The notes beneath the pieces are model-generated. The model made no database searches. It was not told the origin of the DNA and was given only the letters and a program-made list of their open reading frames with translations. This document shows positions 24,280-38,209 of a stretch of 64,000 bases of DNA, in pieces (position 1 is the first letter of the stretch; the number at the start of each line of letters is the position of its first letter). Made by a program: the position numbers and the translations under genes. Source of the stretch: a virus; the UHGV virus genome UHGV-0134778; one strand, written 5' to 3'.

Positions 24280-25802
24280 CACACAATTAGTTGCCCGGCT
24301 AAAGTGCTGGAAGCACCCATAACATCTTCCAACTAAATTTCCTACCAACACAGTTACTTACCCACCACACATGACTGTTTGCTTGTTTAGTGAGCAGTCA
24401 TCCCTTGACATTCTTGCCTATCTTGATAAAATTAAGTTCTTCTCTTTTCTTTTACCGAGTAATTCGGGTTTTCTGTTCTCTTCGGTTTGAAGGGGTATGG
24501 AGATACACCTGAGTGAACAGGGTGAACAACCGAACCTTTAGCTATGGCATTAGCATGGCGAAGCGGACGGGTGACGAAAGAGGGGCCGGAGGACACCAGT
24601 CACTGCCATATAGTATATGGGTGATAACCTGAAGAGTCTGAATAAGTGTTTAAGTACCAGTCAGAGGAAAAGGTGAATGGTAGCCGAAGGGGGAGGGGGG
24701 TTTCTTATATCTTTAATTTGTATACTTTATATACACTTGTAAACCAATTCAATTAGGATCTGTTTACCACACAAAGTGGATGGAGACAAATATCACCTAT
24801 TAAACTTGAATTATTTATAGAAAATACCACAACACTACTTAAGTCTTTGATTTTACACACAAATCCTACAGATACTCACCCTCCATATTTAACATACTTG
24901 TAACATATCCCATACTCTACCTGTCTGATCAATTTACCCAACTACATCCCCATATTTTTCCTGTCTGTACTACCCCTGCCCCGCCGGGAGTCCCGTCATA
25001 TCTGGCTTCCCAGCAAATATCACACCCACAAATATCATTGCCTGAAGAGGGTTTCATCCCATAATACACACCTTGCCTGAAGAGCGATTCATACACCAAC
25101 TAAATTTTTTAATTGACCCCTCCCCGCCGCCGGAGAGGTTGGCTTTTCCCACACAGGCCTGAAGAGTCAGCCAGAAATATCTGAACAGGCCCAGTTATAC
25201 CACGATTTTGACATGACCGACAGGAGTGCTACCCTGTCAGGAGCCGGTAGCGACTGGAGTGCTGCCAGGCGGACGAAATGGGAATACTTCTCATTCTTAT
25301 AACAATTCTCAAATATCGAGGCAGTGAGGCAAATTAATAGGTGAGGCCGTTCACACAGTGGCACAACATTTGCAACCTATCTTGTGGGGTGAATGAGAAT
25401 ACCTATCATTGTGAGAATAGTTATCATTACGGGCAATTTAACATAATACCCATTATGCGCACCACTGGCGATACATACAGGGATTGATAACATGGGTTAC
25501 TGTTTACGCACATAACAATTATATTTCTTACTATTTGTGCGGGATATAGTTAGCAACCAATAGATTAGATATTGACCTGCGGACTTCTGACCGTCCAGAC
25601 GTCTAAACGCCCACACAACAAGGGTTATACATACATTCCTGAATGTAAACAGGGCCGCAAAAATGCTACCATACCAGTTTGTAAATTTTTCATGCAGCAC
25701 TTGACAAAGAGGAGAAAAACTTGTCTGACACTTTTGCCACTTTTGACACTTTTACCTTTGACACAATATGACACAATAACGGCTGTTACTATTCCATATC
25801 TC

Positions 25803-25858
25803 ACTGTTTACGCATAGACTGTTTACGCCTGAATAGTTTACGCCCAAACTGTTTACAC
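25803..25858 (+). repeat. four tandem iteron-like repeats ACTGTTTACGC
   Basis: ACTGTTTACGC at 25803 and 25818, AGTTTACGC at 25835, ACTGTTTACAC at 25848; further copies near 25508 and 26322. Confidence 0.7.
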
Positions 25859-25869
25859 AGAGATGATGA

Positions 25870-26163
25870 GCCATGCCATTCGTTTGCATGAAAACAATTA
25901 ACAAGATAACAATTAACAAGTTAATAATCTTTCGCTGGCTATGCCAGGTGACTAGGTCACCCCTTCGGGCGTTTATATGACATAATATAAAAGCAGGGCA
26001 ACTATTAGAAGATCTATAGTTGCCTTGCTTGTTATGTCATGATTAACTAAATACAAGGCAACTATGATCTGAGTAATAGATTGCAGAAAAACTATCACGG
26101 GGGTGATGGTTACTGCTTTTATATTATGTCGCGACTCCGTCGCGCCATGCCATTCGTTTGCAT
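25870..26163. repeat. composite element: 20-bp direct repeats flanking 18-bp inverted repeats and GGCAACTAT hairpins
   Basis: DR GCCATGCCATTCGTTTGCAT at 25870 and 26144; IR GACATAATATAAAAGCAG (25979-25996) vs CTGCTTTTATATTATGTC (26113-26130); GGCAACTAT/ATAGTTGCC four times; palindromes GGTGACTAGGTCACC and GCGACTCCGTCGC. Confidence 0.7.
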
Positions 26164-26780
26164 AGTTGCCTTATTGTTACAGGTAAAATAATTACATTAT
26201 TAATTATTTCTTATCTTTCTCTTAGTCATCTAATGATTCCAGTCAGTATAGTAATGTACAGTAAACATTAGACGACTAAAGATTTCTCTGTTTATGATAA
26301 CTCATCGTGATAATTTCGGGCTGTTTACGAAAAATGTTGACACCTGAGCTGATTTATGTTATGCAGTCTACACGAATAATTATTTTATGCAGGTATTGAC
26401 TATTCCGTTATTCTGTGGTTGGAATAAATACTTTGCAGGCTATAGAATGGCGTGCGTACGTGAATTCTGAGATCTGGCGGCTATAGTTATACTCGATTTT
26501 TCGCGTAGAACACGCTTTAGATGCTGTGTAAGTGTATGACTTATAAAGATTTTTAGTTGTTGACAAGATATTGGAGATGTGCATCAGGTTAAAATTTGTG
26601 CAATAGCGGCATTACGTGCACTTTTGGGAGAGAAAACGGGTAAAAATGGACTTGCTACCACACAATGAAAAATTATGCAATAGTTATTTTCCATGTATAT
26701 TTGTACAGTATGTGGGATTGATGGCTAGTCAATTATTCCACTTGCCAGGTAGGGCCGTTTATGGTAGGAGAAGAGCAGAC

Positions 26781-27984: not shown

Positions 27985-28201
27985 AGTGTTTTCCTCTCTC
28001 CTGGTTGTTGTGTGGGCACTTTTGCCCCTTCAAGATAAATGTTACCTCACCCCATGGCAGATGTCAACGGTTTTTATAGTTCTTATATGACAGGCAGGCC
28101 CGGTGATTGTCTCCCCCTGTTCCCAAGTGCCGCCCGTTTAATAAGAATAGCAAAAGGGGCCGAACAAGTCAACCCCAAAATCAGTACCAAAACACTTTTA
28201 T

Positions 28202-35941: not shown

Positions 35942-36340
35942 TTATTCGTGGGCGCATGTTACAATGTGCTTTTTATAGCCCAGGTGGTTAGCAAGTGCCG
36001 ACAAAAACTCTTCTTCATAGATCCAGCCGTTGGCAGTGATCCCCATAGCATTTAATGCGCTCTCAAGTGCTGCATTAGCTTTATCGTAGCCGTGACCGCT
36101 CGCCTTCCCGCCAGTATAACCGTACTTATTGTTCTTGTTGTCGTGAATCCAAAAAACGCAGTATTGAGTGTTCCCGCTGGCGGCGGCATAATACCGGATC
36201 TCAGCTACTTCGTGCAAATTATTGTCATCGTCCAGGCCCACCAGATTATAAGCCTTGTAAAATCCACGATCACGGCGGCAGTTCTTGACATCAGAAAAAG
36301 AAAAGTCCGCATTATCAAAATTAAAGGTAGTGGTTTTCAT
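35942..36340 (-). CDS. hypothetical protein (132 aa)
   Basis: Co-oriented ORF. Confidence 0.55.
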   Translation of the reverse strand: MKTTTFNFDNADFSFSDVKNCRRDRGFYKAYNLVGLDDDNNLHEVAEIRYYAAASGNTQYCVFWIHDNKNNKYGYTGGKASGHGYDKANAALESALNAMGITANGWIYEEEFLSALANHLGYKKHIVTCAHE

Positions 36341-36404
36341 GATTTTATCCTCTTAGTGTCTTTTGTGCTTTTAGTGTATTTGGTGTCGGACTATATGTCA
36401 ATAC

Positions 36405-36602
36405 TTATTTTTTATTAAACCAGTGGTTGATCTGTCCTTTTGTCAGGGCGCAACGATTAAGCTGTTGCCGGGTATAGCTCTGACCGCGACGGAATTTATA
36501 AAGGCCTTGCCCGTTGTTGATGGTTACGTCCACCTGGCAAATCATTTGATCGGTGACGGCCTGGCGAGTGTTGCGACGTACTTTAATTCCGTAGGCGTTC
36601 AT
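36405..36602 (-). CDS. hypothetical basic protein (65 aa)
   Basis: Co-oriented ORF. Confidence 0.45.
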   Translation of the reverse strand: MNAYGIKVRRNTRQAVTDQMICQVDVTINNGQGLYKFRRGQSYTRQQLNRCALTKGQINHWFNKK

Positions 36603-37059
36603 GATTTTTATCCTCTCTGTTAATTAGTGTGGTGTTGTTCACCTTGCGAGGATAAGAATAACAGAACTATCCGAGCTGTCAACCGTTAGTTAGAATTATT
36701 TTTTGGGCAGAATTCTCCAGCCGCCGCCACTGCCAGGTTAACCATCATTTTTTCGTACTCTTCTTTATGTTCCAACGCTCCCGCCATAGCCTTTTCAACC
36801 AGGGTGATAGCCTCAGCGTCATTAATCGCTACATTTCCAGGGGATCAAATTACCTTTCATTTTTGTACCTCCTCTTCAATTGTTACCTGCCCTGTAGCAT
36901 AGGCCTACCAGGTTTGCAAGTTTTCACTCTCTCCTACCTGGTCAGTCAGGTCCTGCCAGGCTGGCCCCGCCAGGTTGCAGCGGTTGGTGCATTATGTTAG
37001 AAAAAATTTTTGAAGAAGTGTTGACAGCGGCCCCGCCAGGTGGCACAATATACCTATCG

Positions 37060-37340
37060 AAAGGACGGCAGGCACCGGTGACGGGGGAGACAACCACCGG
37101 GGATAGGCGCTGCATAAAATGAGAACGGTTATCATTATCATTTAAAAATTTATGCAAAAAATCCTTGCTTTCTTTGTCCTGTGTGATACTATAATAACAA
37201 GCCGGGGCAACAGGGGCCGGGAGACAATCACCGGGGGTGCCCGTTATTCTGCAAACGAGAATGATTATCATTCAAAATTCTAAATGAGAACTCCTCGCAT
37301 TTAATAAATTTAATTAGCATGCTAATTACCCTCCGTAACA
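37060..37340. repeat. two tandem copies of an approximately 135-bp repeat unit
   Basis: GGGAGACAACCACCGGGG...GAGAACGGTTATCATT (37084-) vs GGGAGACAATCACCGGGG...GAGAATGATTATCATT (37219-). Confidence 0.65.
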
Positions 37341-37399
37341 ATTTCCTATAAAACAATATCTCATAAAATATTCCCATATATAAATTTTAAAAATCCATT

Positions 37400-37569
37400 T
37401 CTGAAAACGAAAAATCGATTTCGTCCCCAAAAATTTTAGGTCGAGCGCCGGAACGATTTCCAGAAAATCTGATTCAGAAAACGAAAAACAGATCGAGTAC
37501 TAAGAAATTTATCGAGAAAAATTTTCAGAAAATCAGGTATTTGAAATGAAAAACAGATCGAGTACCGAG
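37400..37569. repeat. three iteron-like direct repeats GAAAACGAAAAAC(A)GATCGAGTAC
   Basis: Copies at about 37400, 37475 and 37543 in an A-rich tract. Confidence 0.6.
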
Positions 37570-37879
37570 AGAGATGTGCCGAAACTTTCTGATAGGTAAT
37601 GGACTTATTGTTATAAAAGGTCAGAGGTAAGCTGGGAAAGTTCTGGTAGAAGGGTGAGAGTATGTGCGGAAAATCTGGAATAGTGACTTAAAGTACGGTG
37701 CGAACGATAGAATGAGCAGCACAGCTTATCGTGCCTGTCTTGAAAAAATCCATTTTAGTTTTCGATCCATTTTCTGATTTTCTAAGAATTTTAAAATATC
37801 CGGCCAGGTGAAATATCAAAAGGAGGAAATCCATTTTAGAAATCCTCCTTATGTTTGATGTGCCAGGGATTTTCAAGTA

Positions 37880-38209
37880 TCAACTATCTTTGTTTTTAGG
37901 CTTGTACATGCGTAGAGGTATAGTCTTTGTAACATTCCATCTCCCCAACCCTTCCCAGTTCCAATTGTGAGCGTGATACCCGGTTATGCATGCACTGCTG
38001 GCGTGATCATAAGCATAAGAGAACGCTATGCGAACCAGGTGGGGCCAGTCTTTCCACGGCTGTGGCCCGTAAGCCTTTCTCCAACACCGACACAAACTAA
38101 ATGTCTCAAGAATAGGCAGGATAACAAATCCATACACCACCACCAAGATGATCAGCGCAATGATTGTCAGGAATACATACCCTGCAGTTGAAATAATGAT
38201 CTCTGTCAT
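37880..38209 (-). CDS. hypothetical membrane protein (109 aa)
   Basis: N-terminal helix YVFLTIIALIILVVVYGFVILPI. Confidence 0.5.
   Translation of the reverse strand: MTEIIISTAGYVFLTIIALIILVVVYGFVILPILETFSLCRCWRKAYGPQPWKDWPHLVRIAFSYAYDHASSACITGYHAHNWNWEGLGRWNVTKTIPLRMYKPKNKDS

What the first reader, a model, noticed from the sequence alone, without database searches (positions are those of the whole stretch)
36610..37870. Second non-coding repeat locus: tandem 135-bp units plus GAAAACGAAAAACAGATCGAGTAC iterons
About 1.2 kb within the minus-strand block has no convincing ORF. It holds two tandem copies of an approximately 135-bp unit (37060-37340), three iteron-like repeats (37400-37569) and an AGGAGG/CCTCCT hairpin (about 37811-37840). 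It could encode small RNAs, each unit having GC-rich stems and an AT-rich tail, or a second origin-like site.
Basis: seen in the sequence. Interest (0 to 1): 0.55.

Follow-up and report, generated by a model that had tools for sequence, protein, structure and literature searches.

The report
Phage non-coding island with Fur-type operators
This 1.2-kb gene-free stretch of an rV5-like coliphage is a highly conserved non-coding island: two promoter-led RNA-like modules, each ending in a near-perfect binding site for the host iron regulator Fur, then an AT-rich stretch and repeats, which suggests an undescribed link between lytic-phage regulation and host iron status.

Summary
The window is an rV5-like phage (Vequintavirus). 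Positions 37019-37530 are non-coding yet better conserved than the flanking genes: 94-99% column identity and no indels in nine phages.

- **The two "135-bp units"** are paralogous modules on the + strand, against the flanking genes. Each has a sigma-70-type promoter, a ~55-nt GC-rich "B element" (core GGAGACAAnCACCGG) and a Fur-box-type palindrome (AATGATTATCATT).
- **The B element** has a third copy at 28.1 kb. It recurs in over 200 phages of two subfamilies.
- **The palindrome** is nearly invariant across genera. In bacteria the same 16-mer lies upstream of TonB receptors and other Fur/Zur-regulon genes.
- **The "iterons"** are two exact 18-mers plus one degenerate copy. Related repeat arrays occur in sister genera.
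- **The AGGAGG hairpin** is the terminator of the upstream minus-strand gene.

No Rfam family, tRNA, DnaA box or GC-skew inflection was found, and evidence for RNA structure in the B element is weak.

My best reading (confidence ~0.4) is an early non-coding-RNA and regulatory island gated by host Fur. A transcription-primed replication origin remains a live rival. Function needs experiments.

The parts
36686..36860 (-). Small ORF (phrog_21957), disrupted in this window. It forms the left border of the gene-poor stretch.
   Evidence: Only the C-terminal 31 aa match the PHROG profile. The ORF is frameshifted at a poly-C run in the window and in 5 of 8 relatives.
36872..37000 (.). Poorly conserved spacer with GGCCCCGCCAGGT-type short repeats (CCWGG-rich).
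   Evidence: Repeat family D4. Column identity is 0.64-0.83, with a 53-nt indel in 5 of 9 phages.
37021..37049 (+). Promoter-like site P_u1: TTGACA-17-CACAAT, with TG before the second hexamer.
   Evidence: 10 of 12 consensus matches. The segment is 99% conserved in 9 phages.
37056..37116 (+). B element copy u1 (core GGAGACAACCACCGG at 37086-37100).
   Evidence: Repeat family D8 and an exact pattern match. The fold z-score is only -0.84.
37117..37141 (.). Fur-box-type palindrome of unit 1 (AAATGAGAACGGTTATCATTATCAT). The right half-site ATCATTATC matches the classical Fur consensus exactly; the left half is degenerate.
   Evidence: D5. The comparison with the 19-bp consensus GATAATGATAATCATTATC is from my own knowledge; the Fur-box models are reviewed in PMC2189734.
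37165..37195 (+). Promoter-like site P_u2: TTGCTT-16-TACTAT preceded by TG, overlapping TATAAT.
   Evidence: Read from the sequence. It falls below the scan's threshold. It occupies the same position as TTGCAA-17-TATATT in other genera.
37199..37252 (+). B element copy u2 (core GGAGACAATCACCGG at 37220-37234). This is the copy orthologous to the element in other genera.
   Evidence: The terminal helix has one AU/GC compensatory pair and 16 G.U cells in the orthologues. The fold z-score is +0.58.
37253..37275 (.). Fur-box-type palindrome of unit 2 (AAACGAGAATGATTATCATTCAA). The inner 13-mer AATGATtATCATT is perfect.
   Evidence: The sequence is nearly invariant across genera. The same 16-mer lies upstream of Fur/Zur-regulon genes in bacteria.
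37282..37302 (.). Second, degenerate palindrome (AAATGAGAACTCCTCGCATTT).
   Evidence: Read from the sequence. Better-preserved extra boxes occupy this position in CR3, phiTE, phiWec179 and the Mydovirus locus.
37290..37400 (.). AT-rich spacer (21-30% GC) containing a 15-nt 2.1-copy repeat.
   Evidence: Column identity is 90-98% with no indels.
37390..37436 (.). Repeat unit 1 (degenerate box). It contains the hairpin ACGAAA/TTTCGT.
   Evidence: Repeat family D2. The scan scores it as terminator-like on the minus strand.
37464..37510 (.). Repeat unit 2, with the exact box GAAAAACAGATCGAGTAC at 37483-37500.
37516..37570 (.). Repeat unit 3, with the exact box at 37548-37565.
   Evidence: Arrays of three units ending in CGATCGAGAACC occur in Seuna-, Certre- and Mydovirus.
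37570..37737 (.). Purine-rich, poorly conserved stretch, bracketed by a 19-nt inverted repeat (37518-37536 / 37774-37792).
   Evidence: Column identity is 0.78-0.85 with four 1-2-nt indels. Inverted repeat I2. GC skew reaches +0.6.
37738..37800 (.). Conserved block with AAAATCCATTT-type short repeats.
   Evidence: Column identity is 95-100%. Repeat family D6; the motif count in the whole window is not above chance.
37817..37853 (-). Intrinsic-terminator-type hairpin ending the upstream gene 37880-38209(-).
   Evidence: z = -3.04 on the minus strand, followed by UUUUGAUAUUU. slur16 carries a GC-to-AU compensatory change. A T-to-C change in 3 phages gives a G.U pair only in the minus-strand RNA.
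28080..28170 (-). Third B element copy (u3), outside the finding. It has its own TTGACT-17-TATTCT promoter and points the same way as the neighbouring genes.
   Evidence: Homologues occur in 257 phage records. In Certrevirus this copy is also followed by a Fur-type box.

Best explanation
The locus is a conserved, early-expressed non-coding RNA and regulatory island.

**Proposed mechanism.**
- Two host-type (sigma-70) promoters fire on the + strand, against the flow of the surrounding early genes.
- Each promoter transcribes a ~55-nt B element and then immediately meets a high-quality operator for the host iron regulator Fur.
- When iron is plentiful, Fur-Fe bound at the palindrome limits these transcripts to short B RNAs.
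- When Fur is off the DNA, transcription continues into the AT-rich stretch and the repeat array, and further on runs antisense to the upstream early genes.
- The repeat array is a set of binding sites for a protein specific to each phage clade, or a third transcribed module.

**Shown here.** The stretch is non-coding. Nucleotide conservation is extreme. The promoter-plus-B-element module is conserved in several genera and in several copies. The palindrome has Fur-box identity. The hairpin is a terminator.

**Inferred only.** That transcription occurs. That Fur binds. That Fur gates elongation. What the RNAs do.
For: **Identity.** The window is 96% identical to Vequintavirus ECP32, and 122 phage records match at megablast level.

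**Conservation.** Positions 37019-37530 show 94-99% column identity and no indels in 9 phages. The flanking genes show 83-97%.

**Not coding.** The deposited annotations are inconsistent with one another.

**Cross-genus conservation.** Outside the genus only the B element plus the palindrome stays alignable, at 80-90% over 60-80 nt. This holds in Mydo-, Seuna-, Certre-, Henuna- and Phapecoctavirus.

**Same island in relatives.** In each of these genera the match lies in a ~0.8-1-kb CDS-free gap inside a minus-strand gene block.
- + strand promoter-like sites are enriched there. CR3 has 6 against 1.4 +/- 1.2 expected, PVP-SE1 has 6 against 1.6, and Mydovirus locus L004 has 4 against 1.5, all four on the + strand.
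- In those genera the slot of window unit 1 holds another promoter-led element, "unit A". It has a consensus fold and an AU/GC compensatory pair.

**B element as a self-contained module.** A third copy with its own promoter sits at 28.1 kb on the other strand. It is found in 257 records.

**Strand.** In the terminal helix of B, 16 cells are G.U. These would be A.C mismatches in the opposite-strand RNA.

**Fur-box identity.**
- The site matches the 7-1-7 Fur motif.
- TGAGAAT-n-ATTCTCA-type sites number 12 in the window against 5.5 expected, and six or seven of them fall in the two non-coding loci.
- The palindrome is nearly invariant across genera.
- The same 16-mer is mostly intergenic in bacteria. 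Of six downstream genes scanned, two are TonB-dependent receptors. One is a Bacillales ferredoxin/thioredoxin-reductase-type gene, with a near-identical orthologue at a second locus that I did not scan. One is a cyanobacterial ThrRS, likewise with an unscanned orthologue.
- Unrelated phage contigs carry arrays of the same box.
Against: - No transcript data exist for this phage group in the literature I could search.
- The B element is not thermodynamically unusual: z = +0.58 and -0.84 for the window copies, and most orthologues are near 0.
- RNAalifold gives no consensus structure for B.
- The covariation score of my hand-drawn structure is no better than versions with the 3' partners slid by 2-3 columns.
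- No intrinsic terminator follows the B elements.
- A Fur site 55-75 nt downstream of a start site is an unusual place for repression.
- The third copy in this window has no Fur box.
- P_u2 fails the promoter scan.
- The Fur identification rests on sequence and on the genomic context of sites in other organisms. It does not rest on any binding data.
Confidence: 0.4

Rival explanations
1. Replication origin of the transcription-primed type. Tandem promoters feed transcripts into an AT-rich unwinding region, and the flanking repeats are iterons bound by a phage initiator. The anatomy resembles the T7 primary origin (two promoters plus an AT-rich region), T4 oriF/oriG (a promoter plus an unwinding element) and lambda ori (iterons plus an AT-rich region).
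For: - Two tandem + strand promoters come first, then 110 bp at 21-30% GC, then three repeat units.
- 510 nt are conserved without a single indel.
- The repeats are clade-specific while the host-factor site is invariant.
- A/T tracts and GATC sites occur in the repeat units of sister genera.
- One unrelated phage contig (L082) carries the same palindrome next to two TGTGGATAA DnaA boxes.

The comparison with the T7, T4 and lambda origins is from my own knowledge.
Against: - The cumulative GC skew turns at ~24 kb, not at 37 kb. The rV5 authors likewise found skew changes only where transcription changes direction.
- There is no DnaA box in the locus.
- The Bas54 transposon study singled out only the other, ~2-kb non-coding region as free of insertions.
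- B elements also occur in an ordinary intergenic context.
- No initiator gene was identified nearby.
Confidence: 0.2
2. A purely DNA-level control region for the minus-strand early genes. On the minus strand the conserved 30-nt block reads TTGAAT-N18-CAGAAT with the Fur box in the spacer. That would be a Fur-repressed promoter built like the aerobactin iucA P1 promoter. It would drive the downstream genes (36860 leftwards), or it would face the + strand promoter in a convergent, iron-sensitive switch.
For: - The block ATTCTGCAAAyGAGAATGATTATCATTCAA is the best-conserved part of the element across genera.
- A promoter is needed between the terminator at 37817-37853 and the next minus-strand genes, and the scan finds none of quality there.

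The iucA P1 comparison is from my own knowledge.
Against: - The would-be -10 varies at its key second position: CAGAAT, CGGAAT, CTGAAT, GAGAAT, TAGAAT.
- Unit 1 and the Certrevirus copy next to the third B element have no such -10.
- The scan does not report this site.
- The orientation of the module relative to the genes is reversed in the third copy.
Confidence: 0.15
3. Anti-defence RNA decoys. The B RNAs, or the transcribed repeat array, would mimic a host RNA or antitoxin, as the pseudo-ToxI repeats of the related phage phiTE do.
For: - A relative, phiTE, carries a non-coding repeat locus that evolves into a ToxI mimic (PMC3475682).
- The B element is multi-copy, promoter-led and found in many genera.
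- In sister genera a + strand promoter sits directly before the repeat array.
Against: [quoted passage not shown]
- The repeats here are 65-74 nt apart and only 72-76% alike, so they are not near-identical tandem units.
- No Rfam family matches.
Confidence: 0.1
4. The stretch encodes a real small protein: the 92-109-aa ORF on the minus strand (rV5 ORF198, phrog_14993).
For: The ORF is open in 9 of 9 Vequintaviruses and matches phrog_14993 at E = 1e-60.
Against: - The matching PHROG profile is 92 positions long and presumably built from these same annotated ORFs.
- Variable sites by codon position are 7/10/13, with 9 synonymous and 18 non-synonymous variants. The flanking genes show 3/5/13 and 8/5/22.
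- No Pfam family matches.
- The ORF spans two promoters and two paralogous elements that other genera conserve without any ORF.
- Several records do not annotate it.
Confidence: 0.05

Closest known systems
Fur box: operator of the ferric uptake regulator (19-bp GATAATGATAATCATTATC; 7-1-7 model TGATAATnATTATCA)
   Same: The palindrome of unit 2 has a perfect inner 13-mer AATGATnATCATT and 13 of 14 positions of the 7-1-7 motif counted from my own alignment; one search reports it at 2 mismatches because the first base also differs in the window copy. Unit 1 has a perfect right half. The same 16-mer sits upstream of iron-uptake genes in bacteria. Arrays of several boxes occur in relatives, as in Fur-regulated promoters (PMC2189734).
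   Different: It lies in a strictly lytic phage, not upstream of any gene. It sits 55-75 nt downstream of a promoter rather than over the -35/-10 region. No copy of the sequence exists in E. coli genomes at blastn sensitivity. Binding has not been tested.
T7 primary origin and T4 oriF/oriG (promoter-primed origins); lambda ori (iterons plus AT-rich region)
   Same: The order of parts is the same: tandem promoters, an AT-rich stretch, then direct repeats.
   Different: The promoters are host sigma-70-type. The transcribed element also occurs away from any AT-rich stretch or repeat array. There is no skew signal and no known initiator.
pseudo-ToxI non-coding repeat locus of the rV5-like phage phiTE (PMC3475682)
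   Same: It is a non-coding, repeat-bearing, transcribed locus in the same phage group.
   Different: It lies at a different genome position and its repeats are 36-nt near-identical tandem units. The repeats here are 65-74 nt apart and diverged.
HK022 put / lambda nut: promoter-proximal RNA elements that modify RNA polymerase
   Same: The B element always lies in the first ~60 nt after an early sigma-70 promoter, in several copies per genome. The comparison itself is from my own knowledge.
   Different: There is no sequence similarity that I can name, and no well-supported two-stem structure. This is a resemblance of position only.

Membership tests
Fur box (FUR-family operator) | Match to the 19-bp / 7-1-7 inverted-repeat consensus | tested here: met
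   37256-37270 matches TGATAATnATTATCA with 2 mismatches; 3 such sites occur in the window against 0.53 expected. The inner 13-mer is perfect in unit 2. Unit 1 matches on its right half only.
Fur box (FUR-family operator) | The same sequence serves as an operator of iron- or metal-regulon genes in bacteria | tested here: met
   The 16-mer is mostly intergenic in 96 bacterial loci. Of 6 downstream genes scanned, 2 are TonB-dependent receptors, 1 is a Pyr_redox_2 gene (ycgT-like, Bacillales) and 1 is a cyanobacterial ThrRS. Their regulon membership is from my own knowledge.
Fur box (FUR-family operator) | Metal-dependent binding of Fur and an iron-dependent effect on transcription | not testable with these tools
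   Needs a gel shift or footprint, ChIP, a Fur titration assay, or a fur-deleted host.
Iteron-type replication origin | Three or more direct repeats of one box next to an AT-rich unwinding region | tested here: inconclusive
   There are two exact 18-mers plus one degenerate copy. An adjacent 110 bp has 21-30% GC.
Iteron-type replication origin | Host initiator sites (DnaA boxes) or a strand-composition switch at the site | tested here: not met
   No TTWTNCACA motif in the locus. The cumulative GC skew has no extremum at 37 kb.
Iteron-type replication origin | Replication starts there; a cognate initiator binds the repeats | not testable with these tools
   Needs marker-frequency analysis or 2D gels, and protein-DNA binding assays.
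Bacterial or phage small RNA gene (promoter + structured RNA + intrinsic terminator) | Own promoter conserved in position | tested here: met
   P_u1 scores 10 of 12. Promoter-like sites occupy the equivalent positions in CR3, PVP-SE1 and the Mydovirus locus and before the third copy.
Bacterial or phage small RNA gene (promoter + structured RNA + intrinsic terminator) | Conserved secondary structure with covariation | tested here: inconclusive
   RNAalifold finds no consensus. z-scores are about 0 for most copies. The terminal helix is 89% paired with 1 compensatory pair, but the overall score is no better than the slid controls.
Bacterial or phage small RNA gene (promoter + structured RNA + intrinsic terminator) | Rho-independent terminator at the 3' end | tested here: not met
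   No + strand terminator-like site lies after either unit. The palindrome hairpin is AU-rich and has no U-tail.
Type III antitoxin-like RNA repeats (ToxI / pseudo-ToxI) | Near-identical tandem repeats of ~34-45 nt | tested here: not met
   Units are 65-74 nt apart and 72-76% identical. Tandem Repeats Finder reports no such array. The phiTE pseudo-ToxI lies at another locus.
tRNA or any Rfam family | Match to a tRNA model or to a covariance model | tested here: not met
   ARAGORN finds none in the window or in relatives, including the record that annotates a tRNA-Met here. Rfam finds none at gathering score, and only chance-level hits at E <= 10.
Protein-coding gene (phrog_14993 / rV5 ORF198) | Open frame kept, with an excess of synonymous and third-position change | tested here: not met
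   The frame is open in 9 of 9 relatives. Variable sites are 7/10/13 by codon position, with 9 synonymous against 18 non-synonymous variants; the other frames look similar and the flanking genes show clear bias.

The most novel reading that the evidence does not exclude
Lytic phages of the Vequintavirinae and Stephanstirmvirinae, and apparently several unrelated phages, carry high-affinity operators for the host iron regulator Fur. In the first two groups these are coupled to a new promoter-led RNA element.

Two uses are possible. The phage could read the host's iron status and gate early non-coding or antisense transcription accordingly. Alternatively, once the genome is amplified, the boxes could soak up Fur and derepress the host iron-uptake regulon, as a multicopy plasmid does in the Fur titration assay.
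Probability: 0.22. Interest if true: 0.8.

Novelty: new variant of a known kind. Interest (0 to 1): 0.58.

Why it matters
Early regulation in rV5-like phages is essentially unknown. The rV5 genome paper found only host-type promoters and no origin of replication.

This island has three notable properties:
- It is more conserved than the genes around it.
- It is shared in outline by two phage subfamilies that are used in therapy and biocontrol.
- It contains at least one, and in relatives two, RNA-like elements that are absent from Rfam.

If the palindromes bind Fur, this would be a direct link between iron availability and the programme of a strictly lytic phage, or a phage-borne Fur decoy. 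Iron is the key variable in the gut and in infection sites. The idea can be tested directly with a fur-deleted host, iron chelation and small deletions.

If instead the locus is the origin, it would give the first replication start site for this group.

Tried and rejected
- **tRNA lead.** Record OY978796 annotates a tRNA-Met over the homologous element. ARAGORN finds no tRNA there or anywhere in these loci, so I treat that annotation as unsupported.
- **Rfam.** Nothing at gathering score in the window, and nothing at permissive thresholds in the locus or in five relatives.
- **Host origin of the element.** No copy in 5,426 E. coli genomes.
- **RNA consensus structure for the B element.** RNAalifold returns none. 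Single-sequence z-scores are mostly near 0 on both strands. A hand-drawn two-helix model supports only the outer helix, and weakly.
- **Collection scans.** This spent the single metagenome scan and yielded only about five new true variants.
- **pseudo-ToxI.** It lies at a different locus in phiTE.
- **Origin tests.** No DnaA boxes and no GC-skew signal at the locus.
- **Unit A.** Its homologue is absent from this window.
- **Literature.** I found no transcriptome of these phages and no report of Fur boxes in lytic phages. The only phage Fur box found was upstream of sitABCD on lambdoid prophages.
Full report
**What the window is.** The stretch 36300-38200 is 96% identical to Escherichia phage vB_EcoM-ECP32, and 122 phage records match it at megablast level. 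Nearly all are Vequintavirus, the rV5-like phages. The finding lies inside the long minus-strand block of small early genes.

**Checking the observation.**
- *Two units.* They exist but are loosely alike. An 18-nt core (37085-37102 / 37219-37236) is 94% identical and a 33-nt block (37117-37149 / 37253-37285) is 73% identical, both 134-136 bp apart. Overall identity is ~65%, and Tandem Repeats Finder does not call them.
- *Iterons.* The 18-mer GAAAAACAGATCGAGTAC occurs exactly twice, against 0.05 expected. The third copy is degenerate. Full units are 72-76% alike, spaced 74 and 65 bp.
- *Hairpin.* The hairpin at 37817-37853 is real.

**Coding or not.**
- A 109-aa minus-strand ORF (36942-37271) stays open in all nine Vequintaviruses compared, and it hits phrog_14993.
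- Its variable sites are spread 7/10/13 over the codon positions, with 9 synonymous and 18 non-synonymous variants. This resembles the other five frames. The two flanking genes show 3/5/13 and 8/5/22, with synonymous change in excess.
- No Pfam family matches.
- Depositors annotate this kilobase in mutually inconsistent ways, and two records leave it empty.
- The small ORF at 36686-36860 is frameshifted at a poly-C run in the window and in five of eight relatives.
- I therefore accept "no convincing ORF".

**Conservation pattern within the genus.**
- Positions 37019-37530 have 94-99% column identity and not one indel.
- The flanking genes have 83-97%.
- 36872-37000 is variable, with a 53-nt indel. 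37570-37737 is variable, with four 1-2-nt indels. 37738-37800 is again 95-100% conserved.
- The functional core is therefore about 510 nt of non-coding DNA under tighter constraint than the genes.

**Anatomy of the units.**
- Unit 1 starts with a + strand promoter-like site, TTGACA-17-CACAAT with an upstream TG (10 of 12 matches).
- Unit 2 starts with TTGCTT-16-TACTAT/TATAAT. I read this from the sequence; it is below the scan's threshold.
- Each promoter is followed by a GC-rich ~55-nt "B element" with the core GGAGACAAnCACCGG. That core occurs exactly three times in the window: 37086, 37220 and, on the other strand, 28100.
- Each B element is followed by an AT-rich palindrome.

**Relatives.**
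- A sensitive search finds that only unit 2 (element plus palindrome) is alignable outside the genus. Identity is 80-90% over 60-80 nt in Mydovirus, Seunavirus, Certrevirus, Henunavirus and Phapecoctavirus.
- In each of these genera the match sits in a CDS-free gap of ~0.8-1 kb inside a minus-strand block.
- Those islands share an order of parts:
  1. a + strand promoter and a ~100-nt "unit A";
  2. a + strand promoter (TTGCAA-17-TATATT) and the B element;
  3. one to five palindromes;
  4. in Seunavirus and Mydovirus, a third + strand promoter;
  5. two or three clade-specific repeat units. In Seuna-, Certre- and Mydovirus these end in CGATCGAGAACC, which is clearly related to the window's CAGATCGAGTAC.
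- The promoter scan confirms an excess of promoter-like sites there, mostly on the + strand: CR3 6 against 1.4, PVP-SE1 6 against 1.6, Mydovirus locus L004 4 against 1.5.
- Vequintavirus lacks unit A and has a second B-type unit in its place.

**The third copy.**
- The B element at 28080-28170 has its own TTGACT-17-TATTCT promoter, and it points the same way as its neighbouring genes.
- Homologues are found in 257 records, including Phapecocta- and Justusliebigvirus.
- In Certrevirus this copy too is followed by the palindrome.
- The constant unit is therefore promoter, then B element, then usually a palindrome, in either orientation relative to the genes. That behaviour fits a self-contained transcription unit.

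**Is B a structured RNA?** The evidence is weak.
- RNAalifold finds no consensus structure.
- Fold z-scores are +0.58 and -0.84 for the window copies and near 0 for most orthologues; CR3 reaches -2.4.
- A terminal helix (AUAGCGGG / CCCGCUAU in CR3) is 89% paired in 17 orthologues. It has one AU/GC compensatory pair, and 16 cells form G.U pairs. Those 16 would be A.C mismatches in the opposite-strand RNA, which favours the + strand.
- However, the overall covariation score is no better than the slid controls.
- Unit A of the relatives is stronger. Its consensus fold is -17 kcal/mol, with an AU/GC pair split 6:6.
- No Rfam family matches anything here, and there is no tRNA.

**The palindrome.**
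- ATGAGAATGATTATCATTCAA is nearly invariant across genera.
- It matches the Fur box. The inner 13-mer AATGATnATCATT is perfect, and it fits the 7-1-7 motif (models reviewed in PMC2189734).
- Sites of the type TGAGAAT-n-ATTCTCA number 12 in the window against 5.5 expected. Six or seven of them cluster in two places: this locus and the other non-coding region at 25279-25426.
- In bacterial genomes the same 16-mer is mostly intergenic. The six downstream genes I scanned include two TonB-dependent receptors, a Bacillales ferredoxin/thioredoxin-reductase-type gene and a cyanobacterial ThrRS. From my own knowledge these are members of Fur or Zur regulons.
- Unrelated phage contigs carry arrays of the same box in non-coding, repeat-rich regions. 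One of them sits next to two DnaA boxes.
- E. coli itself has no copy of the element.
- I therefore call these Fur-type operators, by sequence and context only.

**The hairpin.** On the minus strand it folds with z = -3.0 and is followed by UUUUGAUAUUU. slur16 carries a GC-to-AU compensatory change. Three phages carry a T-to-C change that gives a G.U pair only in the minus-strand RNA. It starts 27 nt after the stop of gene 37880-38209(-). It is that gene's terminator and is not part of the repeat system.

**Mechanism.**
- I favour (0.4) an early non-coding-RNA and regulatory island. Host RNA polymerase starts at P_u1 and P_u2, makes B RNAs, and meets Fur at the palindromes. Iron status would then set how far + strand transcription runs into the AT-rich stretch, the repeats and, beyond them, antisense into the upstream early genes.
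- The main rival (0.2) is a transcription-primed origin with iterons. The anatomy fits. Against it stand the absence of a skew signal, the absence of DnaA boxes, the B copy in an ordinary intergenic context, and the fact that the Bas54 transposon study singled out only the 2-kb locus as insertion-free.
- A Fur-repressed minus-strand promoter (0.15), anti-defence decoy RNAs (0.1; precedent in phiTE, though at another locus) and a real small protein (0.05) remain possible.

**Novelty.** I found no description of this island, of the B element, of unit A, or of Fur boxes in lytic phages in the searchable literature. The rV5 paper lists no + strand promoter here and annotates ORFs 198 and 199 instead. 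The parts are of known kinds: promoters, a Fur operator, direct repeats and a terminator. The combination and its setting are new, so I rate it a new variant of a known kind.

Noticed in passing
window 28080-28170 (minus strand): A third copy of the promoter-led B element (TTGACT-17-TATTCT, then ...GGGGGAGACAATCACCGGGCCTGCCTGTCAT). It lies between two minus-strand genes, just upstream of the promoter the rV5 paper calls P168. It has no Fur-type box here, but the Certrevirus homologues have one.
   Followed up: partly
L250 (CR3) 1015-1140; L006 (PVP-SE1) 1330-1450; L004 1310-1420; L248 1075-1185: "Unit A" is a ~100-nt promoter-led element (…ACGCCACCCCACGGCGAAAAGGCGGGGCUAACGUACCGGG…GGAAGGUGGAUCGCCGGUAGUUCG) present in 232 phage records of Certre-, Seuna-, Mydo-, Phapecocta- and Justusliebigvirus. 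It has a consensus fold and one AU/GC compensatory pair, and no Rfam match. It is absent from this window and looks like an undescribed phage RNA motif.
   Followed up: partly
window 25279-25426 (within the large non-coding region ~24900-26400): Four more Fur-type palindromes in two pairs (for example TGAGAATACCTATCA and TGAGAATAGTTATCA). They follow GC-rich stretches downstream of a TTGACA promoter-like site. This region corresponds to the ~2-kb intergenic region reported free of transposon insertions in Bas54, and the GC skew turns here.
   Followed up: partly
window 36686-36860 (minus strand): The small ORF (phrog_21957) is frameshifted at a poly-C run in this window and in 5 of 8 close relatives. 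It is intact in ECP32 and FV3. It may be a decaying gene, a slippery tract, or a recurrent homopolymer sequencing error.
   Followed up: partly
IMG/VR loci L090, L139, L141, L143, L053, L082: Unrelated phage contigs carry arrays of two to four copies of the same Fur-type box in non-coding, repeat-rich regions. In L082 the box lies next to two TGTGGATAA DnaA boxes. Fur-type operators may be widespread in phage non-coding DNA.
   Followed up: no
L004 (OY978796.1) 878-1573: This Klebsiella phage record annotates tRNA-Lys, tRNA-Ile and tRNA-Met here. ARAGORN finds no tRNA in the locus. The "tRNA-Met" overlies the B element and the Fur-type box, so it is likely an annotation artefact.
   Followed up: yes
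window 37518-37536 and 37774-37792: A 19-nt inverted repeat (89% complementary, 237 nt apart) brackets the poorly conserved, purine-rich stretch 37570-37737. Its meaning is unknown.
   Followed up: no
L491-L493, L496 (Phapecocta- and Justusliebigvirus homologues of the third B copy): The promoter of this copy is built into a terminator-type hairpin. The -35 hexamer lies in the loop, and a T-run lies between the stem and the -10 hexamer. One stem position is G.T in two phages and A-T in a third (CAGGGC or CAGGAC pairing with GTCCTG). This looks like a compact terminator-promoter junction.
   Followed up: no
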